A DNA stretch of 34,424 nt, from the NCBI GenBank assembly GCA_012519525.1, contig JAAYQB010000115.1:1-34424 (forward strand), given 5' to 3'. The notes below the pieces were generated by a model. That model saw only the letters and a list, made by a program, of their open reading frames with translations. It did not search any database and was not told where the DNA came from. This stretch comes from Bacteroidales bacterium (GTDB lineage: Bacteria; Bacteroidota; Bacteroidia; Bacteroidales; WCHB1-69). Position numbers and translations under genes: made by a program. Shown here piece after piece: positions 1-29,737 of this stretch (position 1 is its first letter; each line of letters begins with the position of its first letter).

Positions 1-104
1 AAAATTATAAAACTATTAAAAGTATCAAAAAAATGAATAATTTTGCAACTTTAAAGATAAAATAAAAAATAATATATGAATTTGTATATTTGTTTCGTAA
101 ATTA
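1..104 (+). repeat. Cassette-junction repeat, copy A (only the 3' promoter-bearing part; truncated by the window start)
   Basis: Aligns without gaps to 3152-3255 (copy C), with 7 mismatches in 104 nt by manual alignment. Carries two TAnnTTTG -7 boxes at 38-45 (TAATTTTG) and 85-92 (TATATTTG). The second lies 61 nt upstream of the ATG at 153. Confidence 0.85.
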
Positions 105-152
105 GATATTATGGGCAAGGCTAAGAAACCACTACTGCATAAATAAAGAACC

Positions 153-2057
153 ATGTATAAAGAGAATTTATTTGAACTAATACGGAAAGAAGAAGTGATA
201 ATCTGGGCAGGAGCAGGCATGTCATTGTACGCAGGTTATCCTTCTGCGAAAAGATTAGCTGAAATTCTTATTGAAAACCTGACATCTAAAGAAAAAGAAA
301 GAATAGATATTAATATTCCTCTTCCCGAATTAGCCGAAGAATTTTATAGATTAAAAGGAAACAATAAGAATAGTCTGCTTCAAATATTAAATGAAACTTT
401 TCAGAAAAAAGCGGAATCAACAGACACCCATGATAGGTTGGCTATAATTCCACATTTCAGTACAATAATTACAACAAATTATGATTCTTTATTTGAGGAT
501 TCATATGGTCAAAAGGCACAGAAAATATATAAAACAACTCAGATTCCTTACATCAATAATAAGAAGACACAGATATTTAAAATTCATGGTGATTTAAGTG
601 AACCTGAAAGTATAATTTTAACTAAATCAGATTATAACAAATTCTTTAAGGATAATGAAGATAATGGCACATTTTGGTCAGTAATACGAGAAAGATTAGC
701 TACTAAAGCTGTATTATTTTTAGGATATAATTTAGAAGACCCGAATGTTTCTGTCATATTTGACAGAATTACTGATTCATTAGGAGAAAATAGAAAAGAA
801 TGTTTTTTAGTTGCACCAAAACTTCCTCAGCATAAGGCAAATAATCTTATAAAGAAAGGGATTCATTACATAGATTCTACTGCTGAGGAAATAATATCAG
901 AGTTACTTTTAAATTTAAAAGAACATATAATTTCAGATATTGAAAGAGGAAAGACATCAGCAGATACTTTTCGTCATTTTTTGGCAAACATTGACTTGCT
1001 TCCAGATTTAAAAGCAGATAATGATAGTTATAAAGTTACTTCATTAAAAGGAACTAAAGCAGGTATTCATGGAACTGCGAACTTTACTTTCAAAAATGAA
1101 AAAGATTTTATAAAGGAGCTTAACGACTTTACACATGGAAAAAAGTTTGGAACATTGGAAATTCCTGGAGATAAACTATTAAATGCTGAATTTTGGTATG
1201 GCGGTGTTAAATTTCCAGATTCAGAGGGCATATTAAAGCTTGAGTTTAAAAGTGTGCCAACATTAGAAACCAAAATTGATGTAAGATTTGATGATGGTTT
1301 TGACTATCAAAACACTCCTATTAAACTATATGGTTCGCCTAATTTAATTGAGATACATCTTGAAATTGAGAATGCAGATATTGTAGTTAAAGTAGATTTA
1401 GAAACAATGCCTGAAATAAAAGTTAACATGAATTATAAGCACAAAGAGGTTTGTAAAAATGTTAAAACTGAAATAGAACTATTTACCTTATTAATGAAAC
1501 TTGCAGAAGGAAGAATGTTTACTGTTTTTCCGGAAAATGGGAATGCAATATCCAAAGCATTCCCAAAATCTACAGAACTTTTAGAACACGCAACGTTTTT
1601 TTATTATTATTTTACAAACCTTAAAAAGATTGAGAATCATTATAATGTTAGGTTTTCAAATATTCATATAAATAGCATTAATGATGAAACCTTAAAAACA
1701 GTTGAATATATTGTAGCAGTATTTGAGGAGGTATATTTGGATTTAGATTGGGATGATGAATTAATAATGACTCTGGTTGATGATTATTCTGATGAAGTTA
1801 TTGAACAATTCGAAAATGTGAATAAGGTTAGTACGCCTTTTGTTGCTCATAATAAGGTTGAAGAAATAATGGAACTGCATGGTGAAAAAATTAACCTGGG
1901 ATATAAGAAAGTAGAATTTATGGATACTTATGTCACAAACATTGAAGCTATTAAGAAAAGGGAAGATAATGTTGTTAGAATGAAAAGTCGAAGTAAGAAA
2001 ATGCATCTTTCCTATACAAAAGATTTAAATGAAGAAAATATAAAGTCCAGACCATAA
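153..2057 (+). CDS. SIR2_2-type (sirtuin-like, putative NADase) domain protein with an unknown ~370-aa C-terminal domain
   Basis: 634-aa ORF. The N-terminal ~265 aa carry SIR2_2-like signatures: WAGAGMS (res 18-24), TTNYD (Asn109 codon 477-479), KIHGD (His145 codon 585-587) and LFLGYNLEDPN. I recognise no motif in the beta-rich C-terminal part. Confidence 0.75.
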   Translation: MYKENLFELIRKEEVIIWAGAGMSLYAGYPSAKRLAEILIENLTSKEKERIDINIPLPELAEEFYRLKGNNKNSLLQILNETFQKKAESTDTHDRLAIIPHFSTIITTNYDSLFEDSYGQKAQKIYKTTQIPYINNKKTQIFKIHGDLSEPESIILTKSDYNKFFKDNEDNGTFWSVIRERLATKAVLFLGYNLEDPNVSVIFDRITDSLGENRKECFLVAPKLPQHKANNLIKKGIHYIDSTAEEIISELLLNLKEHIISDIERGKTSADTFRHFLANIDLLPDLKADNDSYKVTSLKGTKAGIHGTANFTFKNEKDFIKELNDFTHGKKFGTLEIPGDKLLNAEFWYGGVKFPDSEGILKLEFKSVPTLETKIDVRFDDGFDYQNTPIKLYGSPNLIEIHLEIENADIVVKVDLETMPEIKVNMNYKHKEVCKNVKTEIELFTLLMKLAEGRMFTVFPENGNAISKAFPKSTELLEHATFFYYYFTNLKKIENHYNVRFSNIHINSINDETLKTVEYIVAVFEEVYLDLDWDDELIMTLVDDYSDEVIEQFENVNKVSTPFVAHNKVEEIMELHGEKINLGYKKVEFMDTYVTNIEAIKKREDNVVRMKSRSKKMHLSYTKDLNEENIKSRP

Positions 2058-2216
2058 TATCGTGTAAAAAGCATTGGGGTTTAATAGGTTATTCAAGGAT
2101 TGTAGCCCGCTTCAACTTTTCATATAGCTTGATAAAAAATCGCCCTCAATCCCCTACTTTTCATACATGTAAACGTTACCACCCAAGCGATTAAATAAAA
2201 CTTCAACAGAAATATG

Positions 2217-2390
2217 CACAAAGTGAAAAAACAACACAATTGAATTATGGTAAGGATGTCAAAGAGGAACAATAAAATGAAGCTAATTGGCAGATAAAAA
2301 ATTATAAAAGTATTAAAAAAATGTATACTTTTGCAATCTTAAAGATGAAGTTCTTTTATTAAAATAAAAACATTAATAAATAAAAAACGA
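2217..2390 (+). repeat. Cassette-junction repeat, copy B (5' module + promoter + type-a leader)
   Basis: The 5' module at 2231-2318 differs from 3085-3172 at only 3 positions by eye. The -7 box TACTTTTG lies at 2326-2333, 65 nt before the ATG at 2398. The downstream leader (2316-2390) matches copy E (12171-12245). Confidence 0.85.
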
Positions 2391-2397
2391 TACAGAC

Positions 2398-3078
2398 ATG
2401 AGAAAAACAATTGTTTTTGGAGTAATTACAGTTCTAATTGGACTGATTTCGTGTGAAAAGGACAATGATACGAAACCGAACGACAGTGTTGTTTATGACA
2501 CTATTAAACCATTGGATTATTTTCCTGCATTTCCGGGTTCATATTGGATTTATGATAATAATGACACCTTAAAAGTTGCAAACCAATATGAGAAATATAT
2601 ATTCAATTCAGCAGGATATACTGCGAAACCTGATTATGATACTTTGATTTTGCCAAAACTCATATTAAATGGAATATTTAATCCAACTGATACTTTCGCC
2701 TATGTTAATGGATACTCCATTTCGCAAGCCAAAGGAAGTAGTTATAGAGACCCAGCCTTTAAGGAATTACTTTCTTTAACCGAAGGCGCTGAATTTACAA
2801 TTGGAGGTGCAATTCAAGGTCATAAGATAACAGGTAAAACAATAAAAGTAGATACGACAATTTATTTAGGAACGACTGAATATAAAAACGTGATAATTAC
2901 TATTCAATTTGACTATGCTTGCGTTTCAGGGTCAGGCGGCTCTCCGGAAGATTGTGCAACTTTAAGAGAATATTATGCAAAGGATATTGGATTGATAAAA
3001 CGAGAAACGAGAAATTATCCAATAGATACTGATTTTGTTAAAGATATTGAATTAATAAAATATAAAATTATAAAATAG
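2398..3078 (+). CDS. Small lipoprotein, unknown function
   Basis: 226-aa ORF. The N-terminus MRKTIVFGVITVLIGLISC has a hydrophobic signal plus a lipobox Cys, followed by the acidic stretch EKDNDTK. No enzymatic motif recognised. Confidence 0.7.
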   Translation: MRKTIVFGVITVLIGLISCEKDNDTKPNDSVVYDTIKPLDYFPAFPGSYWIYDNNDTLKVANQYEKYIFNSAGYTAKPDYDTLILPKLILNGIFNPTDTFAYVNGYSISQAKGSSYRDPAFKELLSLTEGAEFTIGGAIQGHKITGKTIKVDTTIYLGTTEYKNVIITIQFDYACVSGSGGSPEDCATLREYYAKDIGLIKRETRNYPIDTDFVKDIELIKYKIIK

Positions 3079-3084
3079 CTAGCG

Positions 3085-3255
3085 ACAACACAATTGAATT
3101 ATGCTAAGAATGTCAAAGAGGAACAATAAAATGAAGCTAATTGGCAGATAAAAAATTATAAAACTATTAAAAGTATCAAAAAGATGAATAATTTTGCAAC
3201 CTTGAAGTTAAAAAAGAAAATAATATATGAATTTGTATATTTGCTTCGTAAATTA
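3085..3255 (+). repeat. Cassette-junction repeat, copy C (5' module + promoter + type-b leader)
   Basis: Starts 6 nt after the stop codon at 3076-3078. The 5' module matches copy B, and 3152-3255 matches copy A. -7 boxes lie at 3189-3196 (TAATTTTG) and 3236-3243 (TATATTTG). Confidence 0.9.
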
Positions 3256-3282
3256 TACGTTATGCACCACTTTAGAACGACA

Positions 3283-4425
3283 ATGAAACAACTGACTATC
3301 ATTTTTGGGCTGACACTTGTAGCAGCGACAAATATTTTTGCTCAAACTGCAATTACAGCGGACAGTTTAGATAAAAAAATTGCCGCCCATTTTGACAAGT
3401 ATAGACCAGAACTTTTCCGTTACAGCGGACTGACAACCTACGGTGAGACACAGACAACCTTTGACAAAAAACAAATTGAAACAGAACTGCAACTTTTCAG
3501 CGAAGTAAAAAATTCGAAACTCCTAAACAAGCCGACAGCAACTGTTTTTGCGTTATGCCACAACATCCTCATTCATACTCCCGACAATGGAAAATCTTTT
3601 CTAAAACTTTTGAATCAGCCGACAACAAATGAAGACATTATCGGTTTGCTGTATTTAGAAATAATTTTTGCTGGGGAATTCGGTGAACAGTTAGCGGTGG
3701 ACAATTTAGAATCCAACAATAAAGAATGGAGTAAAGCTTGGGCTGGATATTTAAGTTCATTCGCAATTTATGAATCTTCTATACCAAGAATTGAAAAAGC
3801 GTTACAACAAACTGACGACACCGAAATAAAACAAGACCTCATCAGTGCATTGATGTATATCAGTAATCCGAAGTCAATAGAAATTATAAAACAGATTATT
3901 GAAACGGCAAAAAATGATGAAGTGCAGACAAAAGCAATTTTTGCTTATGCAGAGCTTGCGGGTTACGATGGAATAAAATATTTGGAGAGCGTCAAAACTA
4001 TCGGAGAAAAATCAAAAGAAGAAAAAAAATCAAGCATTGACTGGCTGAAAAAAGAAACAAGTCCCAAAAATAAATTTGGGACTGAAGTAACCAATGACAT
4101 TGATTTCATTAAAAGATTTGGAGACATTAAATCACCCGCCATCATTTGGATGGACAAGGAAGGATTACTGAATGAAAAAAAAGCAAAAAAGCCAACACCC
4201 CTGACAAAAGACAAGAAAGATAAACTACTTGACTTGCTAATTGAATCAAAAGGTTTCGGACTTGAAGCAGTAAAGGGACAATTGTTTTTAAGTATTGAGC
4301 CAACAGACATTGATAAACTTTTAACGCTGCGACAAATGTGTGTTTATTCACCCAACAATTTTACAAAGGGACGACTAAACACAATTGAAATATTAGTTCG
4401 GTATTTACGCAATGCAAAAAAGTAA
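3283..4425 (+). CDS. Secreted protein, unknown function (possible HEAT/ARM-like helical repeats)
   Basis: The track ORF starts at 3184, but its first 33 codons lie inside repeat copy C and its promoter boxes. The internal Met at 3283 begins MKQLTIIFGLTLVAATNIFAQ, a typical signal peptide. The middle region (DTEIKQDLISALMYISNPKSIEIIKQIIETAKNDEVQTKAIFAYAELAG) looks like HEAT-type repeats. Confidence 0.65.
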   Translation: MKQLTIIFGLTLVAATNIFAQTAITADSLDKKIAAHFDKYRPELFRYSGLTTYGETQTTFDKKQIETELQLFSEVKNSKLLNKPTATVFALCHNILIHTPDNGKSFLKLLNQPTTNEDIIGLLYLEIIFAGEFGEQLAVDNLESNNKEWSKAWAGYLSSFAIYESSIPRIEKALQQTDDTEIKQDLISALMYISNPKSIEIIKQIIETAKNDEVQTKAIFAYAELAGYDGIKYLESVKTIGEKSKEEKKSSIDWLKKETSPKNKFGTEVTNDIDFIKRFGDIKSPAIIWMDKEGLLNEKKAKKPTPLTKDKKDKLLDLLIESKGFGLEAVKGQLFLSIEPTDIDKLLTLRQMCVYSPNNFTKGRLNTIEILVRYLRNAKK

Positions 4426-4509
4426 AAGCGGTGCATAACATCGGACTTGCGAACCGTTGGCAGCAAGGGTGAGAACAACCCATATATTTAAATTATTAAA
4501 TTAAAAAGT

Positions 4510-5103
4510 ATGAGAACAATATTATTGAATATTTTTATAATCGCATTAACATTAACTGCTTGTAATAAAAAAGATGACGATGAAATTGGAAAAAATGTAA
4601 AAGACCCTTATAAATTACCATGGAAGACAGAGAATATTCATTATGAGAATTTGTCAATGTGTAATGGAAGCCATTCGTCGGGATATAAACTTTATTACAA
4701 GGATTCATTATTAATGGAGGAATGTACCCTTGGAAGTACTAGAATATCTAATTCTTTGTTGATTAATGATTCAATCCTTCATCTTTTCGTTATTAGAAAA
4801 AGCAACAGTAGCTATGATTTGTTGACTAAAAATGGCGGACATAGTTGGGAGGAAATCCACGTTGGACCCCCTGAAATTTATAAAATACATTATGTGAATT
4901 TAGAATTGGTTTACTGTGTGACTATAAATCAGAATGATTTATATTTTACCGGCATCTGGAAAAGTAACCTTTCTAATTTTAAGGATAGCCTGACTAAGGG
5001 AAGACATTATATCACAGATTTAGGGACAAATATTTCAGACATGGATTCAACAGTGATAACATTAAATGATAGTGTTGATTTTGTGATAAAGTTTAAAGAT
5101 TAG
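4510..5103 (+). CDS. Small lipoprotein, unknown function
   Basis: 197-aa ORF. The signal MRTILLNIFIIALTLTAC has a lipobox Cys followed by NKKDDDE, which is K-(D/E)n and resembles the Bacteroidetes lipoprotein surface-export signal. There is one Asp-box-like element (TKNGGHSWEE). Confidence 0.7.
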   Translation: MRTILLNIFIIALTLTACNKKDDDEIGKNVKDPYKLPWKTENIHYENLSMCNGSHSSGYKLYYKDSLLMEECTLGSTRISNSLLINDSILHLFVIRKSNSSYDLLTKNGGHSWEEIHVGPPEIYKIHYVNLELVYCVTINQNDLYFTGIWKSNLSNFKDSLTKGRHYITDLGTNISDMDSTVITLNDSVDFVIKFKD

Positions 5104-5177
5104 TAGAAAGCCTGCCCCCACTCACTCAAATCCAGCTTCACTGAACTCGCTCTGACTCGGTTATAATCCAAGTATTT

Positions 5178-5310
5178 TACAAAGCGAGAAAACACAACAC
5201 AATTGAATTATGTAAGGATGTCAAAGAGGAACATAATCCTAATTGGCAGATAAAAAATGATAAAACTATTGAAAGTATAAAAAAAATATATACTTTTGCT
5301 TCGTAAAATA
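5178..5310 (+). repeat. Cassette-junction repeat, copy D (5' module, 6 nt shorter, + promoter + short hybrid leader)
   Basis: 5178-5193 (tacaaagcgagaaaac) matches 2217-2230 of copy B. The 5' module at 5194-5276 matches B and C apart from a 6-nt shorter centre. The -7 box TACTTTTG lies at 5291-5298, 40 nt before the ATG at 5338. It is followed by gcttcgtaaa, as in copies A and C. Confidence 0.85.
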
Positions 5311-5337
5311 AATGTTATTGATAATTAAACAAAGGAA

Positions 5338-6606
5338 ATGATAAACACATTGCATAAAGAACAGAAATCGGGTATTTTGTTATTGCTGGGTTCAAAAACA
5401 TTTGAAAGCTTAGCTTTCTTTTTACTAATGGCAATATTTTTTCCATTCTTGAACGAATCCTTAGGAATTGATTCGTCAAAAGTAGGATTTTATTATACTT
5501 TATTTTATGGAACCATTGGGATAACAAGTTTTATTTCAGGATTTTTAGGCGACAAACGAAACAGATTTCATGTTGTTACAATAGGATTTCTACTATTAAC
5601 AGTAATGCATTTGGCAATTGCATTTCTGCCCGGCAATAATTTTTTAATACTTGCAACATTAATCCTATTAGGACTTGGAAAAGGACTCATATCGCCCAAT
5701 ATGGTTGTCTTTCTTGGGAATATTTACAATGAAAAAGAGAACAAAATAATTGGATTGTCCGGATTTATTTTGTTTTCATTCGCAGTTAGTACTGGAGCTG
5801 TAATAGCCCCTCTACTTTCAGCTTTTTTAAAAAATAATTGGGGTTTTTATTCCCTATTTGCGTTTATATTTGCTTTACTCTCATTTATTTTATTTCTAAA
5901 ATTCAAAAACCACTATAATAAACTTAACATTGTTGCCGACAGGAAAGATTATGTTGAAAATACCGACATAAAAAAACTAAATACATTGATACTGTTTTCA
6001 ATTCTTACAATCGGGATTTTCATAAATTTTGTACTCTACCAAAATAGACTGACTTTTACACATGCCATACATGACTTTTTCGAAAATGGATTTGAAATTA
6101 CTCAAGTATTCAATAATATTGACAACTATATTTCTTTCATTATCTTAGCTCTATTTGCATTTTTAATTTTAAAAATAAAGCGTTTAAATTGGAGTAAAAT
6201 TTTTAATGTAATTCTCATTGGGCTTATTGTTGCAATCATTGCATTTATAGTAATAGCAACTTCTTTATCAATATCTCAAGCGATAAATAGTCTATTTATA
6301 CAATCGTATATTTTCATCTTAATAGCCGAGACATTGATTTCTCCTATAATATTCTATATAACATACAGATGTTCACCTTTAAAACACAAAGGACTTTTTC
6401 AAGGAATATCATTTATATTTAGGGGAATCGCAAATCAATTATTATTCTTAGGATTATTGATGTATAATAAAAATGCTTTAATGGCATTTATTGGATTTGC
6501 AATCATTCTTACAATTTCTGCTATTTTAATATTAATCTTAAAAAAGAAAGTGAACAATAAACTAACTGAAATAGAAAGAAATATAGAAGCCGATAACATA
6601 CAATAA
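5338..6606 (+). CDS. Polytopic membrane transporter, MFS fold, divergent POT/PTR2 (peptide transporter)-like
   Basis: 422 aa, about 12 hydrophobic segments by eye. POT-like patterns are SGFLGDKRNRF (cf. GGxxAD) and GLGKGLISPN (cf. GxGxFKPN). The ExxERFxYY signature looks degenerate (KTFESLAFF). Confidence 0.5.
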   Translation: MINTLHKEQKSGILLLLGSKTFESLAFFLLMAIFFPFLNESLGIDSSKVGFYYTLFYGTIGITSFISGFLGDKRNRFHVVTIGFLLLTVMHLAIAFLPGNNFLILATLILLGLGKGLISPNMVVFLGNIYNEKENKIIGLSGFILFSFAVSTGAVIAPLLSAFLKNNWGFYSLFAFIFALLSFILFLKFKNHYNKLNIVADRKDYVENTDIKKLNTLILFSILTIGIFINFVLYQNRLTFTHAIHDFFENGFEITQVFNNIDNYISFIILALFAFLILKIKRLNWSKIFNVILIGLIVAIIAFIVIATSLSISQAINSLFIQSYIFILIAETLISPIIFYITYRCSPLKHKGLFQGISFIFRGIANQLLFLGLLMYNKNALMAFIGFAIILTISAILILILKKKVNNKLTEIERNIEADNIQ

Positions 6607-6642
6607 AATTCAAATTATTTATATTTGTAAAAACTTAAAAAA

Positions 6643-7371
6643 ATGAGAACGATAACAACAACAATTTTGATTCTGATTTGCATTGGAAATACATTGGGAC
6701 AAAACAATGAAAAACTTGCGAAGAAAATCACTAAAAAGATGTGCGACTGTATTGGATTTATAGATAAATATGAAAATTTAAATGCAAAACTTGACAGCTG
6801 TTACGACTTGGCTCTCAATGACATTATAATGAATGCTACACCTAAAGAAATCCAAATCATTGGAAATACAGAAGAATTTAATGAAGTTAAAAATCGAATT
6901 GGAAAACTCATTAAAGTGGATTGTGATGCAGTAAAAAATGTTATTATTCAAGAAGTGCAATCGTCAATAAATGAAAGTAGTTATCCCACTAATTTCACAA
7001 CAAAGGAATTAAAAGAAGCAAAAAGAAATTTAGATTCTTATGACGGAAAAATCATTGCTTTTGATGGTAAAATAGTTGAAGTAAAATCACTTGGAGAAAA
7101 CAAACCCTATTTGAAAGTTGAACTTGAAAATGGAGAAACAGTTTGGATTGGTTCTATGGTAAACAGTCAATTCGACAAAGTAGGTAATTCAATACGATTT
7201 TTAGGATATTTTTTACTAGTTAAAAAAGGTGAAATTGAATTCAATAACTCTGGATTTCACATTCTTGCATTTGCTGAAATAGACTTGAAAACAAAAAAAT
7301 TAGCTATTATGCCGGGGTCGGAATCTCAGATAAAAGAATGGGGACAAGGAAAAATACCAAATACAAAATAA
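6643..7371 (+). CDS. Secreted protein, unknown function
   Basis: 242-aa ORF with the N-terminal signal MRTITTTILILICIGNTLGQ. No recognisable catalytic motif. Confidence 0.65.
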   Translation: MRTITTTILILICIGNTLGQNNEKLAKKITKKMCDCIGFIDKYENLNAKLDSCYDLALNDIIMNATPKEIQIIGNTEEFNEVKNRIGKLIKVDCDAVKNVIIQEVQSSINESSYPTNFTTKELKEAKRNLDSYDGKIIAFDGKIVEVKSLGENKPYLKVELENGETVWIGSMVNSQFDKVGNSIRFLGYFLLVKKGEIEFNNSGFHILAFAEIDLKTKKLAIMPGSESQIKEWGQGKIPNTK

Positions 7372-7382
7372 ATCAATTAACA

Positions 7383-7976
7383 ATGAAACAGTTCACATAC
7401 ATATTAACATTATTGCTTTTGGCAAGTTGCGGACAGCCGAAAGCCGAACAGGCAAGCACGACTGCTTCCGATACGACTACAACAGAGAGAGTTGACCTAA
7501 AAGATAGACTAAAACCAATTAAAGCGAATTTTAAGAGAATTAACGCTATTAGCAATTGGTGTTCCATTGAAACCGAAGAATTGTGGGAAACGACTGAAGG
7601 AGGAGAAGCAAAATTTTATTATCAAAAGGGGATATTAGAAAAAATTGTAACACACCACTATGGCGAAACATTTCAACTACTGACAGAATATTATTTACTG
7701 AACGGCGAACTTTCATTTGTTTTTGCAAAACACTACCAATACAATCGGCATGTATATTACGACTCAACAGCAATGATAGAAAACAATGATACTGAGGTGT
7801 TTGACGTTGAAAAATCGAAAATAACCGAAAAGAGAAGTTACTTTGAAAACGGAAAATTATTTCATCAAATCAATCAAGAGTCCGATTCACCGCTTACGGA
7901 CGACTATTTACTTCAAGAAGAAAAAGAAATAAAAACTTATTTTGACCAGCTTATTGGAATGACGAAAAAGAAATAA
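7383..7976 (+). CDS. Lipoprotein with MORN-variant / YwqK-like repeats (possible immunity-type protein)
   Basis: The track ORF begins at 7338, overlapping the previous gene. The Met at 7383 gives MKQFTYILTLLLLASC, a signal plus lipobox. There are three YYxxGxL-type elements: FYYQKGILEKI, EYYLLNGELSFVF and SYFENGKLFHQI. Confidence 0.55.
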   Translation: MKQFTYILTLLLLASCGQPKAEQASTTASDTTTTERVDLKDRLKPIKANFKRINAISNWCSIETEELWETTEGGEAKFYYQKGILEKIVTHHYGETFQLLTEYYLLNGELSFVFAKHYQYNRHVYYDSTAMIENNDTEVFDVEKSKITEKRSYFENGKLFHQINQESDSPLTDDYLLQEEKEIKTYFDQLIGMTKKK

Positions 7977-8058
7977 AAACCGAAAATCCGAATTTTCAAT
8001 TTTATAGTATCTCATAAATTTCATTATCGTGGCATATATGATGCCTTTGCATAGCACT

Positions 8059-9471
8059 TTATCTATTACTAAAACTATCCCAATCCCATGGTGCAGCGGT
8101 AGAATCACCTTTTATTGGTAAAGGAAATTTTGTTGCGTATCTACCTTCGCCGTATTCAGCATCGTAGCATTTCATTATTTTTTCTGCAGGCAAGTGACTT
8201 TCCGGATTGTATATTTTCTTTTCTTTATACAAGCGTTCTTGAATAGAAATAGCGTCTTGCGGTAAATCATTGAAAGGTCTGCATTCAGGATACACTTTGT
8301 CTATCAAAAACTCTATCATTTCTTGCGAATATTTTACACCATATAATTCGACACTTAGTTTAAATGTAATATGCTTAAAGATATCGTAAAAGTCCATATC
8401 GTAATACTTTTTCAGTTGTTTTAGTCTTACTTTAATTATTCCTGGCGATGTCTTTTGTGTTTCTCTAATCATTTCTGGTCTTTCTTCAAATGGATACATT
8501 GCCCATGGTTGTATTTCTTTAGCAAAAGAAACATAGGATAAGCTCCATATATACATATCGTCAATAATATCGTCCCATCTATCTTCAATGTTTCCATGTT
8601 TTGCTATTTGTGGCTTATATTGCCTTTCTATGCGTTCAAGAGTTATTTTCAATTCATCGGGATTTGGAATTTTTAGCTCTGATAATTCTGCTAATTTATC
8701 AAAAGCTTCTAATTTTTTATGTTCCATTTCTGTTGCAATAGTACCTTTTCCTAAGGCTTCTGCTATCCTTAATCTAAAAGCCATTCCTGCTCGCACCGCA
8801 GTATGTCCTTCTTCCATTAATTTATCTAAACCTTTTTCTATAAGCAATCGCAAAAAGCGTGGATATGTCATGCCGGGTTCTTCGCCAAGAGCAATAGCCT
8901 TTTCAATTGGTGCTACAAGTAAATCATCGCGAAACATTTTGTCAACCTCAACATCATTCTTGTGCATATTAGGTTTATCTTTTAATTCTTCATCAATTTC
9001 TTTAAAAGCCTCTTCTTTTTTATATTTTATTAGCGAATCAGATAACTTGATTTTAGAATGCTGTTTCAAATAATCAATTTGGCTGCTTGCATTTGCCTTT
9101 GCATCAAAACTTCTAGCCATTTCTATAGTTTTTTGTTTTTCTTCTTTGATTTTTTTTATTGTATCTCTTAATGCGTCTAAATATCTTTTCAGCAGCATAG
9201 CATCGCTATTATCATCTGAACCTGAAGATTGAGAACTTTTTATTAATACATTGGTGTAGTGAGTACTGAATTTTAAATAAAGGTCTTCTTTGAGCATTTC
9301 CATGCTAAAAGCAGTCATATCATCATGTTTTTGTGCTAAGTCTTCCATTCTGGTTAGAATTTGGCACATTATATCAAAATCTTCGCCACTCACATTGGCT
9401 TCTTTGCATTCCCGAACCATTTTTCTATAAGGCGAAAGCATTGGATCGAGCATTAATGGGTCTATTGGCAT
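8059..9471 (-). CDS. Hypothetical cytoplasmic protein, 470 aa, no recognisable domain
   Basis: Long uninterrupted ORF. The antisense 161-aa ORF at 8588-9073 is a shadow. Charged and helical composition. No signal peptide, TM segment, Walker A, nuclease or HTH motif seen by eye. It lies downstream of the 218-aa ORF, 10 nt apart. Confidence 0.7.
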   Translation of the reverse strand: MPIDPLMLDPMLSPYRKMVRECKEANVSGEDFDIMCQILTRMEDLAQKHDDMTAFSMEMLKEDLYLKFSTHYTNVLIKSSQSSGSDDNSDAMLLKRYLDALRDTIKKIKEEKQKTIEMARSFDAKANASSQIDYLKQHSKIKLSDSLIKYKKEEAFKEIDEELKDKPNMHKNDVEVDKMFRDDLLVAPIEKAIALGEEPGMTYPRFLRLLIEKGLDKLMEEGHTAVRAGMAFRLRIAEALGKGTIATEMEHKKLEAFDKLAELSELKIPNPDELKITLERIERQYKPQIAKHGNIEDRWDDIIDDMYIWSLSYVSFAKEIQPWAMYPFEERPEMIRETQKTSPGIIKVRLKQLKKYYDMDFYDIFKHITFKLSVELYGVKYSQEMIEFLIDKVYPECRPFNDLPQDAISIQERLYKEKKIYNPESHLPAEKIMKCYDAEYGEGRYATKFPLPIKGDSTAAPWDWDSFSNR

Positions 9472-9481
9472 AATTTTATTT

Positions 9482-10138
9482 TTAAAGGTTAATAATAGAT
9501 TTGTACTGAGCGATTTTTTCTTTTATATGCTCATCTTTATATGGAAGATGGCGTTTATGGCGATGCTCCATTATAATGTCAGGATTATGTTCCCATTTTT
9601 CTGTAAGATTTTTTAAAAGTTCTTTTTCATCTTTATAGGAAGAAATAATAATTTCTTTTACTAAATCAACTATTTTCATAAAATAGCTTTTATACTCGCT
9701 TGGCACTTCAGCATTTGAATAAATATCAATTTCATCTAATTGTTTCCAACAATCAATAAATATTTGGTTGGATTCGTCTAGTTGTACATCTATCATGTTG
9801 CTAGTTTCAGTTTCGTTTACAAAAACCATTGCCTCATCTATATCCTGATACTCGTCTATTTTTTCCAAAACCCTTTCCGAAGCCTTTACTCGCACAACCT
9901 CCTCAAACTCACTCAGCATTTTATTTTCCATTATATATCTATCTTTTATCAAAGCTATTCCGCATAAGTGATTTAAATTTCCTAATTTGTCTTTAAATTC
10001 TTCCAAAGTATTACAACTTTGTATAGCTTCAGAGAGCTTTTTTTCAGCTTCGTAGCTGTTTTTGTAATTAGGATTATTAGCATACCGCTTTGCTCTTACG
10101 GCATAATATTCCTTATACTCTTGTAATAAATCTGACAT
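9482..10138 (-). CDS. Hypothetical cytoplasmic protein, 218 aa, no recognisable domain
   Basis: First gene of a two-gene minus-strand operon. Acidic, helical composition with no motif recognised. A promoter box lies 62 nt upstream. Confidence 0.7.
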   Translation of the reverse strand: MSDLLQEYKEYYAVRAKRYANNPNYKNSYEAEKKLSEAIQSCNTLEEFKDKLGNLNHLCGIALIKDRYIMENKMLSEFEEVVRVKASERVLEKIDEYQDIDEAMVFVNETETSNMIDVQLDESNQIFIDCWKQLDEIDIYSNAEVPSEYKSYFMKIVDLVKEIIISSYKDEKELLKNLTEKWEHNPDIIMEHRHKRHLPYKDEHIKEKIAQYKSIINL

Positions 10139-10199
10139 ATTGTTAACGTTTTACATTTAATAATTTTGCTTTTTTTTAAGTATTTCCAACATTTTTTTG

Positions 10200-10207
10200 C
10201 AAAGTTA
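10200..10207 (-). promoter_or_regulatory. Bacteroidetes -7 promoter box (TAACTTTG on the minus strand) for the 218/470-aa operon
   Basis: The plus strand reads caaagtta, the reverse complement of TAnnTTTG. It lies 62 nt upstream of the start codon at 10138. Confidence 0.45.
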
Positions 10208-10314
10208 GTAATTTATTTTGAATTTACACCCTTTTTACAATTTGAATTAAAAAAAAACAACAATATTTTTTAGGTAGTTTTTATTTTTTTATCAAACGAT
10301 AAAGAATTTATTTA

Positions 10315-10407: not shown

Positions 10408-10611
10408 ATGGATATAACGCAATCAAATGAAATTCTTTTGTCTATTACAGTTGAAGACTTGCAATCAGAAGCAATAGAGAAAATAGGAAGAAAATTAAAT
10501 GATGATGAAATTCGTATTGCAAAAAAGGGATTGGAAAACGGATTGCTTACAAACATAGATGTTGTTTATTCAACAATTTTTAATGAGATGATTGATTATG
10601 AAAGAAATTAA
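10408..10611 (+). CDS. Small (67 aa) protein of unknown function, first gene of the RM operon
   Basis: The ORF overlaps the methyltransferase start by 20 nt, suggesting translational coupling. It sits where a controller (C) protein would, but I see no obvious Xre-type HTH. Confidence 0.5.
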   Translation: MDITQSNEILLSITVEDLQSEAIEKIGRKLNDDEIRIAKKGLENGLLTNIDVVYSTIFNEMIDYERN

Positions 10612-11461
10612 AACTGATATACTTGAAGGCGACAGCAAAGAAATCTTAAAAACTTTAGCTGATAATTCCATTGATTTAATCGTTACCTCACCGCCGTATG
10701 CCGACAGGCGAAAGCAAACTTATGGAGGTGTAAGTCCCGAACGTTATGTTGAATGGTTTTTACCCATAAGCAAAGAACTTTTAAGAGTTTTAAAACCTGA
10801 TGGAACTTTCATTTTAAATATTAAAGAGAAGGCTGAAAACGGTGAGCGTAATACTTATGTTATTGAATTAATTTTAGCTTTACGAAAACAAGGCTGGCTT
10901 TGGACTGAAGAATTTATTTGGCATAAAAAAAATTCATATCCGGGCAAGTGGCCTAATCGCTTTCGTGATGCTTGGGAAAGACTGTTACAGTTCAACAAAA
11001 CTAAAAAATTCAATATGTATCAAGATGAAGTAAAAGTGCCTGTTGGCGATTGGGCAAGCGGACGATTAAAAAATTTGAGTGAAACAGACAAAGTTAGAGA
11101 TAATTCAAAAAATGGAAGTGGTTTTGGAAAAAACATTTCTAATTGGGTAGGCAAAGAAACCGTTTATCCGAATAATGTTTTACATTTATCAACCGAATGT
11201 AACAATAAAAATCACAGCGCTGCATTTCCTGATGCTTTGCCTGAATGGTTTATAAAATTATTTACGAAAGAATACGACACGGTTTTAGACCCTTTTGCAG
11301 GTTCGGGAACAACATTAAGAGTAGCTAAAAATTTATATCGAAATTCCATCGGAATTGAAATTATGCCCGAATACATTGATATTATTAAACGTCAAATTCA
11401 GAAAAGAGAAATTTTATTATTTGAATCCAATACAGAATATGAAGCAATTAAATCTAAATGA
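10592..11461 (+). CDS. Beta-class N4-cytosine/N6-adenine DNA methyltransferase (N6_N4_Mtase type)
   Basis: Motif IV, DLIVTSPPYA (SPPY at 10688-10699), is N-terminal. Motif I, LDPFAGSGTT, is near the C-terminus, which is the beta permutation. SPPY rather than DPPY favours N4-cytosine. The start could instead be the ATG at 10598. Confidence 0.85.
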   Translation: MIMKEIKTDILEGDSKEILKTLADNSIDLIVTSPPYADRRKQTYGGVSPERYVEWFLPISKELLRVLKPDGTFILNIKEKAENGERNTYVIELILALRKQGWLWTEEFIWHKKNSYPGKWPNRFRDAWERLLQFNKTKKFNMYQDEVKVPVGDWASGRLKNLSETDKVRDNSKNGSGFGKNISNWVGKETVYPNNVLHLSTECNNKNHSAAFPDALPEWFIKLFTKEYDTVLDPFAGSGTTLRVAKNLYRNSIGIEIMPEYIDIIKRQIQKREILLFESNTEYEAIKSK

Positions 11462-12167
11462 AATAAATGAATATGTAGAAACCCATATTTCACATTTCCA
11501 TAATAAAAGACTTGAATATGTGCGTAATAAAATTGATTTAACAAAGATTTTAAAACAAAAAAATCCGTATCTATTTAAGGCTAAAAACATTATAGATGCA
11601 CATGATTTAATAAAAGGATTTTTAGATGCTTTTTTGCAATCGCAAGAAGAAACAATTTTTGGCAATTTTATAGAAGAATTGGCAATTTTTGTTTGCGATA
11701 AAGTTTACGATGGAAAAAAGTCGGAGTTAACGGGTTTAGACTTAGAATTTGAAAAAGACAATATAATCTATATTGTTGAAATTAAAGCAGGTTGGAATTG
11801 GGGTAATAGTAGTCAAATAAAACAATTGAAACTCAACTTTAACAATGCTAAAAAAATATTAAAAAAACAAACAGACAAAAAAATTATAGCTGTAAACGGT
11901 TGTTGTTTTGGAAAAGATAACAAACCTCAAAAAGAAGGATATTTAAAACTTTGCGGTCAAAGGTTTTGGGAATTAATTTCGGGAAATGAAAGACTATACA
12001 TTGATATTATTGAACCTATTGGGCATAATGCAAAACAAAAAAATGAAGAATTTTATAATGCTTATATTCAAGTAATAAATAATTTAACATTAGAATTTTC
12101 AAAAGATTTTTGTAATAATGGTGTTATTGATTGGGAAAAATTAATAAAATTTAACTCTGCAAAATAG
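11439..12167 (+). CDS. Putative type II restriction endonuclease, PD-(D/E)XK fold
   Basis: The Met at 11439 (MKQLNLNEINEYV) overlaps the methyltransferase end by 23 nt. The track start at 11355 lies deep inside the MTase gene. A candidate catalytic pattern is GLD(101)LEF...IVE(114)IK(116)AG. Its position directly after the MTase supports the call. Confidence 0.55.
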   Translation: MKQLNLNEINEYVETHISHFHNKRLEYVRNKIDLTKILKQKNPYLFKAKNIIDAHDLIKGFLDAFLQSQEETIFGNFIEELAIFVCDKVYDGKKSELTGLDLEFEKDNIIYIVEIKAGWNWGNSSQIKQLKLNFNNAKKILKKQTDKKIIAVNGCCFGKDNKPQKEGYLKLCGQRFWELISGNERLYIDIIEPIGHNAKQKNEEFYNAYIQVINNLTLEFSKDFCNNGVIDWEKLIKFNSAK

Positions 12168-12170
12168 TAA

Positions 12171-12245
12171 TAAAAAATAATATATCTTTGCAACCATAAA
12201 GATAAAGTTCTTTTTAAAATAAAAATATTAACAAATAAAAAAAAC
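12171..12245 (+). repeat. Cassette-junction repeat, copy E (promoter + type-a leader only; lacks the 5' module)
   Basis: Aligns to 2316-2390 of copy B: aaaaataatatatctttgcaaccataaagataaagttctttttaaaataaaaatattaacaaataaaaaaa versus aaaaaatgtatacttttgcaatcttaaagatgaagttcttttattaaaataaaaacattaataaataaaaaa. The -7 box TATCTTTG lies at 12183-12190. Confidence 0.75.
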
Positions 12246-12294: not shown

Positions 12295-13290
12295 ATGAGT
12301 ATTAATATTGAAAACTTTAATCAAGAAGTCAATTGTGTTTATAAAGAAGAACAATACTCCGTTCGAGATAATGGAGCTGTATTACGACACTCTCCTATAA
12401 ACAAACGAGCACGACCAACTGACAACAAATGGACTTTTGGAAAACTAAATATTAAGACAGGATATTTGGAAATTGCTTCGATTCGTATTCATAGAATAGT
12501 TGCAACCGCATTCCACGGTGAACCACCAACGAAAGAATACGTTGTTGACCACATAGACACTAACAAGCAAAATAATAGACCCGACAATCTACGTTGGGTA
12601 ACAAGATTAGAAAATGTTTTGCTTAACCCAATTACCGCAAGACGTATTGAAATTGTCTGTGGAAGCGTTGAAGCATTCCTTGCCGACCCTTCAAAATTTC
12701 GGGACAAATTCTCAGATCCAAACTATAAATGGATGTGTACTGTTAGTCCTGAAGAAGCGCAAGCAAGTAAAGAAAGATTATTGGATTGGGCAGAAAGTAA
12801 AAAACCATTACAAGGAGGTTCACTAGGCGAATGGATTTACAATCGAAGCAAGTCAAATCAAGTTGCTGACTATATTGAAGAAAAATTAGAATTTATAAAA
12901 TCCCTAACTCCAAATGCTGTACAAAAAGTCCGAAATTGGAAAACACCAAGTGAATTTCCTTGTTGTCCACAGGAAAACACTCACAATCCAATAGCTGACT
13001 ATAGTGCAAACTTAAATATAGGAAACGTATTTTCTCGAAACCAATATACGAGTTCAATTATTGAACGTTTTGCAATCTCCAAAGATGAAAAAACATTATG
13101 GATTATGTGCAAAAGTGGAGACGAAAACCCCATAAAACCTTATTCTTTAGCTGAGATAACCTATCAAAATAATGTTTTCGTTCATGATAGTCTTGGAACT
13201 TTTTTTGAGAAAGACGGAGCGGAAAAACAATTTACTCTTGCTCAAGGGTTTGAATGGACAGGAGTTGACACTATCGATGATTATTGTTAA
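12295..13290 (+). CDS. HNH (HNH_3 / homing-endonuclease-type) nuclease with an unknown C-terminal domain
   Basis: IHRIVATAFHGEPPTKEYVVDHIDTNKQNNRPDNLRWVTRLEN is a typical HNH_3 pattern, preceded by a NUMOD4-like N-terminus (YKEEQYSVRDNGAVL). The last ~190 aa are unassigned. Confidence 0.75.
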   Translation: MSINIENFNQEVNCVYKEEQYSVRDNGAVLRHSPINKRARPTDNKWTFGKLNIKTGYLEIASIRIHRIVATAFHGEPPTKEYVVDHIDTNKQNNRPDNLRWVTRLENVLLNPITARRIEIVCGSVEAFLADPSKFRDKFSDPNYKWMCTVSPEEAQASKERLLDWAESKKPLQGGSLGEWIYNRSKSNQVADYIEEKLEFIKSLTPNAVQKVRNWKTPSEFPCCPQENTHNPIADYSANLNIGNVFSRNQYTSSIIERFAISKDEKTLWIMCKSGDENPIKPYSLAEITYQNNVFVHDSLGTFFEKDGAEKQFTLAQGFEWTGVDTIDDYC

Positions 13291-13438
13291 AATGAAGTTT
13301 GAACAAAAAAAACCGAACCGCTAACACAGATTTCGCCTCAGACGAACTAATATGTAAATTAAACCCTTCAATACACTTACACCCCTACCCGCTCATTGAG
13401 CGATACTATCTCAAAAAAACATAATTTTTTAATTTTTC

Positions 13439-20127: not shown

Positions 20128-20208
20128 CAAAGTTGATAAACCATGTTTTGGATGTATAAACATTTATTAAGAAAATATTATTTTTTCATCTTGAAAAAAA
20201 CGAAACAA

Positions 20209-20778
20209 ATGCCCAATTTATTTATTATTTCCGGATGTAACGGTGCAGGCAAAACAACTGCGTCTTTAACCGTATTACCCGAAACTTTAGCCTGTTTAGA
20301 GTTTTTAAATGCCGATGAAATTGCACGTGGTTTATCCCCTTTAAACCCTGAGAAATCAGCGATAGAAGCAGGTACTGTGGTAATTAAAAAGATAGAGCAA
20401 CTCTTGGAAAGCAAAACCGATTTTGCAGTAGAAACCACTTTATCAACGAAAATGTTTGCCAAAACAATAGAAAAAGCAAGACAACTTGGCTATACGATTA
20501 CCTTGCTTTACTTCTGGCTCGATTCCATTGAGTTGGCAGTCGAAAGGGTAAAAATAAGAGTAACCGAAGGCGGACACAATGTGCCTCCTTCTACCATTGC
20601 TCGCAGGTATCTTTCAGGATTGAAAAACTTATTTAATTTATATATTCCTATTTGCGATTATTGGATGATTTTTGATAACTCAAAAATGCACGCCGAGCTT
20701 ATCGCAGAAGGATATTTTAAAGACAACATTAACATCAAGAACAATAATACTTATAGTAACATAAAAAAGTTAGCTTAA
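20209..20778 (+). CDS. Zeta-toxin-family P-loop kinase/ATPase (COG4185-like)
   Basis: From the Met at 20209: MPNLFIISGCNGAGKTT (Walker A close to the N-terminus, as in this family), then FLNADEIARGL and VETTLS. The track start at 20143 would add 22 atypical residues. Confidence 0.7.
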   Translation: MPNLFIISGCNGAGKTTASLTVLPETLACLEFLNADEIARGLSPLNPEKSAIEAGTVVIKKIEQLLESKTDFAVETTLSTKMFAKTIEKARQLGYTITLLYFWLDSIELAVERVKIRVTEGGHNVPPSTIARRYLSGLKNLFNLYIPICDYWMIFDNSKMHAELIAEGYFKDNINIKNNNTYSNIKKLA

Positions 20779-27484: not shown

Positions 27485-27546
27485 AATGATATTTTTTTTA
27501 CAAAAGTATATTTTTTTTTATCACAAAAAGACAATTCATGCAATAT

Positions 27547-29611: not shown

Positions 29612-29737
29612 CTTGTTTATAACTTATATTTTTTACAAAAGTAGTATTTTTTTTTATCAAATTGTTTTTATTTCTTATTTTTCAAAAAAAACACATAAAA
29701 TAGTGTAGCATTTGTCGTAACAAAAGAAATAAATGAG

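What the first reader, a model, noticed from the sequence alone, without database searches (positions are those of the whole stretch)
1..5310. A promoter-carrying junction repeat punctuates a same-strand gene-cassette array (integron- or rAID-like architecture)
Seen directly:
- Copies lie at 1-104 (A, cut by the window edge), 2217-2390 (B), 3085-3255 (C) and 5178-5310 (D). A partial copy E lies at 12171-12245.
- A versus C shows 7 mismatches in 104 nt. The 5' module acaacacaattgaattatg.taag.atgtcaaagaggaac...ctaattggcagataaaaaat differs at only 3 positions between B (2231-2318) and C (3085-3172).
- Every copy carries one or two TAnnTTTG -7 boxes 40-105 nt before the next start codon. In copy C the repeat begins 6 nt after the preceding stop codon.
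- Each repeat is followed by 1-3 plus-strand genes of unrelated function: SIR2; a lipoprotein; a secreted protein plus a lipoprotein; a transporter plus a secreted protein plus a lipoprotein; HNH.
- The region is visibly more AT-rich than the housekeeping half.

Established: integron cassette arrays, and the recombinase-associated acquired interbacterial defence (rAID) clusters described in Bacteroidales, are same-strand arrays of heterogeneous small genes with features suggestive of active gene acquisition next to a recombinase gene.

Inference: this may be a gene-capture array in which each captured unit brings, or receives, its own promoter. No recombinase is visible. The window starts inside a copy, so the array and any recombinase would lie upstream.
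Basis: partly seen in the sequence, partly recalled or inferred. Interest (0 to 1): 0.75.

Follow-up and report, generated by a model that had tools for sequence, protein, structure and literature searches.

The report
Integron-like cassette cluster, promoter-bearing junctions
A strain-variable row of defence and surface-protein genes in an uncultured Bacteroidales bacterium is built from integron-style gene cassettes whose junctions carry a repeated promoter, yet no recombinase lies at the locus.

Summary
It is a mosaic of modules: X, core, promoter P, and leader U1 or U2. The array runs about 15 kb, from a housekeeping SLT gene 1.6 kb upstream of the window to leuS at 13.4 kb.

Three lines support cassette capture:
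- Related strains carry different gene sets between the same repeats.
- Module X (window 2050-2183) matches, at E about 1e-13, a covariance model built from more than 100 attC-like hairpin sites. Those sites lie in an array of at least 85 kb in Persicobacter that is headed by a tyrosine recombinase.
- Homology among U2 copies stops exactly at a GTT. The six bases after it are the reverse complement of the six bases before the AAC at the far end of the same cassette: 6/6 for two cassettes and 5/6 for two more. SIR2 homologues in two other genomes share their 5'UTR from that same GTT.

Against membership, no recombinase lies within 10 kb upstream or 21 kb downstream. Core and P do not fold like attC, and some sites are decayed.

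Verdict: a recombinase-less, CALIN-like offshoot of the Bacteroidota rAID/integron-like family, with a promoter inside each junction unit. It is a new variant of a known kind.

The parts
1..110 (+). Copy A (cut by the window edge): promoter module P plus leader U2, ending in GATATT. TT at 109-110 takes the place of the R' crossover. -7 boxes lie at 38-45 and 85-92.
   Evidence: The full copy is at L002 9683-9958.
111..2183 (+). SIR2 cassette: 5'UTR starting ATGGGCAAGG, ORF 153-2057 (ThsA-like SIR2 NADase domain), and its own attC-like site.
   Evidence: SIR2 domain matches: Pfam and PADLOC and PDB sequences. The 5'UTRs of homologues in L042 and L044 become similar exactly after GTT. The R'' box GACCATAAT matches the expected GCCCATAAC.
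2050..2183 (+). Module X: a full-length attC-like recombination site. R'' lies at 2050-2058 and overlaps the SIR2 stop codon; it reads AAT where the family has AAC. L''/L' arms follow, and the R' GTT is at 2175-2177.
   Evidence: cmsearch with model R1 gives 57.8 bits, E 9e-13 to 1e-13, covering model positions 1-134. Its DNA matches the Persicobacter array.
2178..2397 (+). Copy B junction unit: spacer 2178-2230, core 2231-2302, promoter module P (-7 box 2326-2333) and leader U1 to about 2387.
2398..3078 (+). 226-aa lipoprotein gene, with no family match. It is shared by strain types 1 and 2 and is disrupted by an IS in some strains.
3085..3261 (+). Copy C junction unit. It runs from an R''-like ACAAC 6 nt after the stop codon, through core, P (-7 box 3189-3196) and U2 (-7 box 3236-3243), to TACGTT at 3256-3261.
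   Evidence: Homology among U2 copies ends at this GTT.
3262..4458 (+). 413-aa cassette. It starts with ATGCAC directly after the GTT, encodes a HEAT-like secreted protein, and ends in a mini-site.
   Evidence: The start hexamer and the distal R'' are exact reverse complements. This is the only 6/6 match among 372 AAC/AAT positions in 6 kb, and it lies at the predicted place.
4431..4464 (+). Mini attC-like site Jx: R'' GTGCATAAC at 4431-4439, R' GTT at 4456-4458, and no L stem. It is probably a deletion derivative. The 197-aa cassette starts after it with GGCAGC.
   Evidence: R1 gives 12.1 bits, E 0.07-0.6, which is marginal. The hexamer rule holds.
4510..5103 (+). 197-aa lipoprotein gene.
5104..5316 (+). 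Copy D junction unit: a degenerate R''-like GCCTGCCCCCAC, the core (ATAATC subvariant, 5184-5259), P (-7 box 5291-5298) and a shortened U2 ending AAATGTT (GTT at 5314-5316).
   Evidence: Strain type 3 diverges from the window inside P of this copy.
5317..10275 (.). Variable segment: MFS transporter, 242-aa secreted protein and 197-aa lipoprotein on the + strand, and 470-aa and 218-aa genes on the - strand. One strain type has a single 227-aa lipoprotein cassette in its place.
   Evidence: The hexamer rule was not satisfied for this segment.
10408..12167 (+). 67-aa gene plus a type II restriction-modification pair (N6_N4_Mtase and EcoO109I-like endonuclease).
12164..12245 (+). Copy E: partial P (-7 box 12183-12190) plus leader U1, ahead of the HNH gene.
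12295..13360 (+). HNH endonuclease gene (12295-13290) followed by a degenerate 5' half of an X-type site (13297-13360). This is the distal end of the array, next to leuS (13439-16219, minus strand).
   Evidence: The local alignment to the X site of copy A scores 25, against a shuffle maximum of 17.

Best explanation
The locus is a recombinase-less cluster of integron-type gene cassettes. It is the Bacteroidota counterpart of a CALIN and belongs to the same kind of system as the recombinase-associated rAID arrays.

Shown:
- Each cassette begins right after a GTT and ends in a site that opens with a matching ...AAC box.
- The array is strain-variable, and its repeat was found only here.

Inferred:
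- A tyrosine recombinase of the NF040815 'site-specific tyrosine recombinase/integron integrase' family inserted the cassettes. It is either encoded elsewhere in the genome or has been lost.
- In this lineage the inter-cassette unit (core-P-U2, about 180 nt from ACAAC to GTT) contains a Bacteroidota sigma-A type promoter. Each cassette inserted at the GTT would therefore be transcribed from the junction rather than from one distant promoter.
- Several sites have decayed: AAC has become AAT, L stems are broken, and some are mini-sites. Present-day turnover is therefore probably mostly homologous recombination between the 130-380-nt repeats and the flanking core genes.
For: Reference family:
- Persicobacter pPP2 carries a same-strand array of at least 85 kb with more than 100 sites, headed by a co-oriented 379-aa tyrosine recombinase.
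- 97% of cells in the L stem form standard pairs, against 26-45% when the partner columns are slid. 13 of its 15 pairs show changes on both sides.
- 76 of 105 cassettes obey the exact hexamer rule, against 3-9 after permutation.
- Ancylomarina has the same architecture.

This locus:
- Model R1 finds window 2050-2183 at 57.8 bits (E about 1e-13).
- It finds the site after the 246-aa gene of strain type 2 at 65.7 bits.
- It finds the site after the 341-aa gene at 27.6 bits.
- U2 copies stop being similar exactly at GTT.
- The hexamer rule is exact for the 413-aa and rSAM cassettes and 5/6 for the SIR2 and 246-aa cassettes, in each case at the predicted position.
- SIR2 cassettes in L042 and L044 share their 5'UTR from GTT| onward, and L044 shows the expected R'' GCCCATAAC.
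- Three strain arrangements plus an IS variant exist.
- The core repeat was found only at this locus.
Against: - No recombinase lies within 10 kb upstream or 21 kb downstream.
- Core and P are not matched by R1. Their arms are no more complementary than shuffled sequence, and folding z-scores are about 0 or positive.
- The X sites here are AT-rich and thermodynamically weak.
- The hexamer rule fails for the MFS segment and for the spacer-core unit that follows X. No GTT boundary could be defined for the U1-type junctions.
- The right-hand boundary of the type-1/type-3 replacement lies in unique sequence. This fits homologous exchange better than site-specific exchange.
- Among contigs with an identical LeuRS, the content is uniform.
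- Promoter activity rests on motif and position only.
Confidence: 0.6

Rival explanations
1. A variable hot spot driven only by homologous recombination (like the neisserial 'minimal mobile element'), combined with promoter reuse. A native promoter region was duplicated in front of successive horizontally acquired genes. Strains swap blocks by RecA-dependent exchange in the repeats and flanking core genes. The attC-like pieces are inert relics that arrived with some of the genes.
For: - No local recombinase.
- Patchy mosaicism among repeat copies suggests gene conversion.
- One replacement boundary lies in unique sequence.
- The flanks are 99% identical between strain types.
- Promoter reuse is documented in prokaryotes (PMC3575422).
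Against: Homologous recombination cannot explain three things:
- Repeat homology ends exactly at GTT in seven different junctions.
- Start hexamers match distal AAC boxes 6/6 twice and 5/6 twice, at the predicted places.
- SIR2 5'UTR homology across three genomes starts at the same GTT.
Confidence: 0.22
2. The repeat is itself the mobile thing: a MITE-like or IS-derived outward-facing promoter element that inserted between genes already present.
For: - It is a discrete repeat of about 180-330 nt upstream of unrelated genes.
- An IS is active at the locus in some strains.
Against: - No terminal inverted repeats or target duplications.
- Its 5' and 3' extents vary.
- Every copy found lies at one locus.
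- No phage or viral match, and among plasmids only the match of module X to the Persicobacter array.
- What varies between strains is the genes, not the presence or absence of the repeat between the same genes.
Confidence: 0.05
3. An active rAID or integron whose recombinase simply lies further away on the chromosome or on a co-resident element and services the array in trans.
For: - The recombinase family is very large in Bacteroidota (7977 hits at E<1e-20).
- Formation of CALINs in trans is an accepted route (PMC8618304).
- X scores as a full-length site.
Against: - Several sites are decayed.
- Content is uniform across many samples.
- The genome-wide search could not be run.
Confidence: 0.3
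4. The repeat is conserved only as a shared regulatory region (a common operator and promoter, forming a regulon) and plays no part in recombination.
For: - P is the most conserved module and holds a well-placed TAnnTTTG box.
- P occurs without the core in copies 0 and E.
Against: This does not explain the GTT/AAC boundary logic, the strain-variable content, or the confinement to one locus.
Confidence: 0.08

Closest known systems
rAID-1 (recombinase-associated acquired interbacterial defence) arrays of Bacteroidales (Ross et al. 2019; bioRxiv 10.1101/471110; PMC12247911)
   Same: - A co-oriented array of short, heterogeneous, low-GC genes, many of them lipoproteins or secreted proteins.
- Repetitive intergenic sequences 'reminiscent of integrons'.
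- The host belongs to the same order.
   Different: - There is no 5' XerD-like recombinase. The array abuts a housekeeping gene.
- The contents include anti-phage-type genes (SIR2, restriction-modification, HNH), and no recognisable T6SS immunity family was found.
- The rAID-1 intergenic motif itself could not be compared.
[quoted passage not shown] 2016, as summarised in PMC8618304)
   Same: - Cassettes run from GTT to a distal site that opens with a complementary ...AAC box.
- The site is a structured R''-L''...L'-R' hairpin with bulged bases.
- There is no integrase at the cluster.
- Defence genes occur as cassettes (compare bioRxiv 10.1101/2024.07.02.601686).
   Different: - The recombinase of the reference arrays is co-oriented with the cassettes and scores below the IntI cut-off (TIGR02249: 198 bits against a cut-off of 265).
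- The junction unit here contains a promoter, whereas integron cassettes are mostly promoterless and read from Pc.
- The sites were found with a custom model, not with IntegronFinder's attC model.
Recombinase-headed cassette arrays of Persicobacter psychrovividus pPP2 and Ancylomarina sp. YFZ004
   Same: - The site family is the same: R1 gives 58-66 bits for the X sites and 100 bits in Ancylomarina.
- The hexamer rule is the same.
   Different: - In those arrays R' lies about 20-35 nt before the next ATG in most cassettes, with no repeated promoter unit.
- They carry the recombinase and, in Persicobacter, more than 100 cassettes.
Promoter reuse / putative mobile promoters (Nijveen, Matus-Garcia and van Passel 2012, PMC3575422)
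   Same: A near-identical promoter region lies upstream of non-homologous genes.
   Different: Here the copies are confined to one array and are bounded by recombination-site boxes.

Membership tests
Integron (classical) | Adjacent intI gene (tyrosine recombinase with the IntI-specific insertion) | tested here: not met
   No Phage_integrase-type protein is found in the window or in the 10 kb upstream.
Integron (classical) | attC sites: R''(..AAC)-L''...L'-R'(GTT..) hairpins at the 3' end of each cassette | tested here: inconclusive
   The custom model R1 finds one full site in the window (2050-2183, E about 1e-13), one marginal mini-site (4431-4464) and one weak site just upstream of the window. 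Core and P are not matched. IntegronFinder's attC model was not available.
Integron (classical) | Cassette rule: the bases after the GTT crossover are complementary to the bases before the AAC of the same cassette's site | tested here: met
   The match is 6/6 for the 413-aa and rSAM cassettes and 5/6 for the SIR2 and 246-aa cassettes, each at the predicted position. The rule fails for the MFS segment.
Integron (classical) | Single attI plus Pc at the head; cassettes mostly promoterless | tested here: not met
   A promoter-like module precedes each cassette or cassette group. The array head (J0) abuts the SLT gene.
CALIN | Two or more attC sites close together with no integrase nearby | tested here: met
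   The R1 sites at L002 9589-9723 and window 2050-2183 lie 2.2 kb apart, and relics occur at 4431-4464 and 13297-13360. This holds in the sense of this site family only; it was not tested with IntegronFinder.
rAID-1 | 5' XerD-like recombinase at least 44% identical to BF9343_RS08045 | tested here: not met
   No recombinase is present at either end of the array.
rAID-1 | Two or more co-directional downstream genes with GC of 41% or less | tested here: met
   Seven + strand genes lie between 153 and 7976. The island has 30.7% GC against 35.0% for the rest of the window.
rAID-1 | Conserved intergenic motif shared with published rAID-1 clusters | not testable with these tools
   The motif logos are figures only, and no Bacteroides rAID sequence could be fetched.
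rAID-1 | Genes are orphan T6SS or other polymorphic-toxin immunity genes | tested here: inconclusive
   The lipoproteins and secreted proteins match no family. The only hints are weak MORN_2 and HEAT matches.
MITE / IS-derived element | Terminal inverted repeats and target-site duplication; dispersed copies | tested here: not met
   No terminal inverted repeats were found, and all copies lie at one locus.
Known RNA family (Rfam 15) | Match to a curated covariance model | tested here: not met
   There were no hits at gathering threshold in the window, and none at E<=1 in 1-5400.

The most novel reading that the evidence does not exclude
The core-P-U2 unit may be a new class of recombination site: an attC/attI hybrid with a built-in promoter. 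A Bacteroidota integron-like recombinase acting in trans would drop cassettes directly behind a live promoter at every position. That would make a 'self-expressing' cassette array able to live anywhere in the chromosome, away from its recombinase.
Probability: 0.25. Interest if true: 0.8.

Novelty: new variant of a known kind. Interest (0 to 1): 0.62.

Why it matters
In classical integrons only the cassettes near the single Pc promoter are expressed. Distal cassettes form a silent reserve. An array whose junction units each carry a promoter would keep every captured defence or surface gene switched on, which is a different trade-off between cost and readiness.

The work also gives the 'repetitive intergenic sequences' of Bacteroidota recombinase-associated arrays a concrete anatomy: an R''-L''...L'-R' hairpin with strong covariation and an exact hexamer rule. 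I did not find this described in the papers I could search.

It shows that anti-phage genes such as a ThsA-like SIR2 travel as such cassettes between Bacteroidota genomes. Finally, it supplies a covariance model that could be used to map these arrays and their recombinase-less offshoots in gut and digester Bacteroidales.

Tried and rejected
- **Rfam.** No match at gathering threshold or at E<=1.
- **Folding.** The whole junction B folded as RNA on either strand gives z of +0.4 to +0.9. The core and the local X sites folded as ssDNA give z from about -1.3 to +1.9, none significant. Duplex energy between the 5' arm of the core and the 3' arm of U2 is no better than for shuffled arms. Core-P-U2 is therefore not a classical folded attC.
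- **MITE reading.** No terminal inverted repeats.
- **Public collections.** There is no match in phages and none in viral contigs. The one plasmid match became the key lead. The core 20-mer gave one hit among 185,579 species genomes, in an unrelated SAR116 alphaproteobacterium, which I take as chance.
- **Sister species.** Species with 84% and 76% LeuRS identity have no island beside leuS.
- **Identical-protein look-ups.** Look-ups for LeuRS and the 197-aa protein returned almost only the window's own arrangement.
- **Core as a cassette junction.** Treating the 3' end of the core (CTAA|TTGGCAG) as a cassette junction gave one 6/7 coincidence. The U2-GTT boundary explains the data better.
- **Hexamer rule failures.** The rule was not satisfied for the MFS segment, for the 197-aa cassette (only a degenerate box), or for the spacer-core unit after X. 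The apparent similarity between the sequence after X's R' and the start of the 194-aa cassette is not significant.
- **U2 and the Persicobacter recombinase-proximal region.** The resemblance is weak and low-complexity and was not used.


Full report
**1. Observation**

Copy A versus C shows 7 mismatches in 104 nt. The 88-nt module differs at 3 positions between B and C. Copy C begins 6 nt after the preceding stop codon. The first 13.3 kb of the window has 30.7% GC, against 35.0% for the rest.

TAnnTTTG boxes sit 19-111 nt before the next start codon in every copy. The motif is not enriched in the window overall (56 found, 58 expected). It is similarly placed upstream of many housekeeping genes, which is the normal position of the Bacteroidota -7 element (the promoter consensus is established knowledge).

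**2. Anatomy and extent**

I fetched contigs that encode the identical SIR2 protein. They show that the array does not continue far upstream.
- The full copy A and one more copy (P+U1 only) precede a 341-aa gene.
- Beyond that gene lie housekeeping genes: an SLT-domain protein, a T9SS-sorted FG-GAP protein, an M23/LysM peptidase, an epimerase, gmk, an aminotransferase and a histidine kinase.
- Downstream, the island ends at leuS (13439-16219). The rest of the window is housekeeping.
- No integrase or recombinase lies within 10 kb upstream or 21 kb downstream.

An alignment of twelve junctions from three strain types shows a mosaic of modules (alignment A2):
- X, about 134 nt, followed by a spacer of about 55 nt
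- the core (ACAACACAATTG...CTAATTGGCAGAT), in two subvariants
- the promoter module P
- one of two leaders, U1 or U2; U2 carries a second -7 box

LeuRS homologues place the organism among uncultured Bacteroidales. The samples appear to be anaerobic-digester metagenomes, judging from their accession series.

**3. Distribution and variation**

The invariant core 20-mer gave only one hit among 185,579 species-representative genomes, in an unrelated SAR116 alphaproteobacterium, which I take as chance. It has ten matches in seven metagenome stretches, and every one maps to this same locus. Profile searches find no core or P copy in the flanks or in sister-species loci. The two closest sister species have no island beside leuS.

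Content varies within the species, while the flanks are 99.0% identical:
- **Type 2 strains** replace [341-aa][SIR2] with three other units: a sugar transferase plus a B12-radical-SAM gene, a DUF4062 gene plus a Schlafen/AlbA_2 ATPase gene, and a 246-aa gene.
- **A type 3 strain** replaces window 5317-10275 with one 227-aa lipoprotein gene.
- **Some strains** carry an IS in the 226-aa gene.

Most samples nevertheless carry the window's arrangement. The third, absence of a recombinase, counts against it.

**4. The key lead**

Junction B gave no match in phages. In plasmids it matched, weakly but specifically (77% over 75 nt), an intergenic repeat of Persicobacter psychrovividus plasmid pPP2.

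That region is a same-strand array of small genes covering at least 85 kb. At its 5' end is a co-oriented 379-aa tyrosine recombinase whose gene spans the record origin. NCBIfam NF040815, 'site-specific tyrosine recombinase/integron integrase', matches it at 226 bits. The integron-integrase model TIGR02249 gives 198 bits, below its cut-off of 265.

The array holds more than 100 inter-gene sites. Each has this architecture:
- (6 nt)AAC, the R'' box
- a long bulged stem, L''/L'
- a variable centre
- ...CCGTT(6 nt), the R' box

Three results support the reading of these sites as attC-like:
- In an alignment of 31 distinct sites, 97.3% of cells form standard pairs, against 26-45% when partner columns are slid. 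13 of the 15 L-stem pairs change on both sides.
- The six bases after the GTT of one site are the exact reverse complement of the six bases before the AAC of the next site in 76 of 105 cassettes. After permuting the hexamers the count is 3-9. This is the signature of integron-type circular cassettes.
- Ancylomarina sp. (class Bacteroidia) has a homologous recombinase, a co-oriented array and the same sites, one of which scores 100 bits.

The recombinase family is very large in Bacteroidota.

**5. The same logic in the window**

I built covariance model R1 from the Persicobacter sites and searched the loci with it:

| Site | Location | Score |
|---|---|---|
| Module X after SIR2 | window 2050-2183 | 57.8 bits, E about 1e-13, full length |
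| Equivalent site after the 246-aa gene (type 2) | L011 2224-2091 | 65.7 bits |
| Site after the 341-aa gene | L002 9589-9723 | 27.6 bits, stem broken |
| Mini-site Jx | window 4431-4464 | 12 bits, marginal |

A degenerate half-site also follows HNH.

Independently of the model, homology among all U2 copies ends exactly at a GTT. The cassette rule holds from that GTT:
- **413-aa cassette:** starts GTT|ATGCAC and ends at GTGCATAAC. This is 6/6 and the only such match in 6 kb.
- **rSAM cassette:** starts GTT|GTGTGC and ends at GCACACAAC, which is the first nine bases of the next core. This is 6/6.
- **246-aa and SIR2 cassettes:** each scores 5/6 at the predicted position.

SIR2 homologues in two other Bacteroidota genomes are also flanked by R1 sites (82 and 35 bits). 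Their 5'UTRs become similar to the window's exactly after GTT...GCCGTT|ATGGGCAAGGCTAA against the window's ...GATATT|ATGGGCAAGGCTAA. L044 shows the expected R'' GCCCATAAC. Neither genome has a recombinase within 10 kb.

**6. Interpretation**

The genes are integron-type cassettes. The promoter therefore belongs to the junction unit, not to the captured gene.

In the reference arrays R' lies only about 20-35 nt before the next ATG in most cassettes, and no such promoter unit is present. Here it is interposed at every unit. Core-P-U2 does not itself fold like an attC and is not matched by R1. Several sites are decayed.

I therefore read the locus as a recombinase-less offshoot, analogous to a CALIN, of the Bacteroidota rAID/integron-like family. 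It was built by site-specific recombination. It is now probably maintained and exchanged mainly by homologous recombination between the repeats and the flanking core genes. One replacement boundary in unique sequence fits that view.

Whether a family recombinase elsewhere in the genome still services the array could not be tested.

**7. Cassette content**

- A ThsA-like SIR2 NADase-domain protein
- A type II restriction-modification pair and an HNH endonuclease
- In other strains, a DUF4062 plus Schlafen-ATPase pair
- An MFS transporter
- Several lipoproteins and secreted proteins with no family match

This resembles the defence-rich cassette content reported for chromosomal integrons (bioRxiv 10.1101/2024.07.02.601686). 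In its lipoproteins it loosely resembles rAID arrays, but no immunity family was identified.

**8. Comparison and novelty**

By definition the locus is neither an integron nor an rAID-1 system, because both require the adjacent recombinase. It works like their cassette arrays and fits the CALIN concept (PMC8618304).

Three things are new relative to what I could find:
- the promoter-bearing junction unit
- the explicit attC-like anatomy and hexamer rule for co-oriented, recombinase-headed arrays in Bacteroidota
- SIR2 as a travelling cassette in this family

I rate it a new variant of a known kind, with interest 0.62.

Noticed in passing
L001 12756-14081 (same position as window about 2900-3080): Some strains carry a DDE_Tnp_1 (IS4/IS5-like) transposase inserted in the 226-aa lipoprotein gene, which truncates it to 186 aa.
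   Followed up: partly
L011 3380-5074 versus L014 1313-2935: The Schlafen/AlbA_2 plus HATPase_c_4 protein of type-2 strains contains an (E-G-T-I/V) tandem tract whose length differs between samples (564 aa against 540 aa).
   Followed up: no
L038/L039 (Persicobacter psychrovividus pPP2, about 318-404.6 kb): An array of at least 85 kb with more than 100 cassettes is headed by a co-oriented tyrosine recombinase whose gene spans the record origin, so it is missing from the gene table. One ORF-poor cassette of about 640 nt (start GTT|ATCTCTGCTAAAA) recurs dozens of times. The contents include SUFU-like, DUF4272, DUF4279, DUF6678 and TNT-toxin-related genes.
   Followed up: partly
L041 14631-14764 (Ancylomarina sp. 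YFZ004): One attC-like site is nearly the same type as a Persicobacter site (100 bits). This suggests that cassettes or sites are shared between the orders Marinilabiliales and Cytophagales.
   Followed up: no
Protein hits P0242-P0360: Many full-length homologues of the 634-aa SIR2 protein sit on contigs of only about 2-3 kb. This would be expected if the gene is usually flanked by repeats that break assemblies.
   Followed up: partly
window 13297-13360: The sequence after the HNH stop codon is homologous to the 5' half of the X site that follows the 341-aa gene. It is a decayed terminal site next to leuS.
   Followed up: yes
window 27490-27519 and 29625-29654: A 30-nt repeat (87% identical) holds TACTTTTG on the minus strand, just upstream of two minus-strand genes (201-aa PRiA4_ORF3-like and 171-aa). 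It is probably a shared promoter.
   Followed up: no
window 20143-20778: A Zeta-toxin/AAA_33-like kinase gene, with small unannotated ORFs beside it, lies in the housekeeping half. It may be a toxin-antitoxin module.
   Followed up: no
L013 12029-12079: The radical-SAM ORF of type-2 strains reads into the repeat. Its last 17 codons and its stop codon are encoded by the core (…QQHTTQLNYGKDVKEEQ*).
   Followed up: partly
window 8059-10138 (minus strand): Two genes of 470 and 218 aa have no match in Pfam, NCBIfam or PADLOC. They lie in inverted orientation inside the otherwise same-strand array and are absent from type-3 strains.
   Followed up: no
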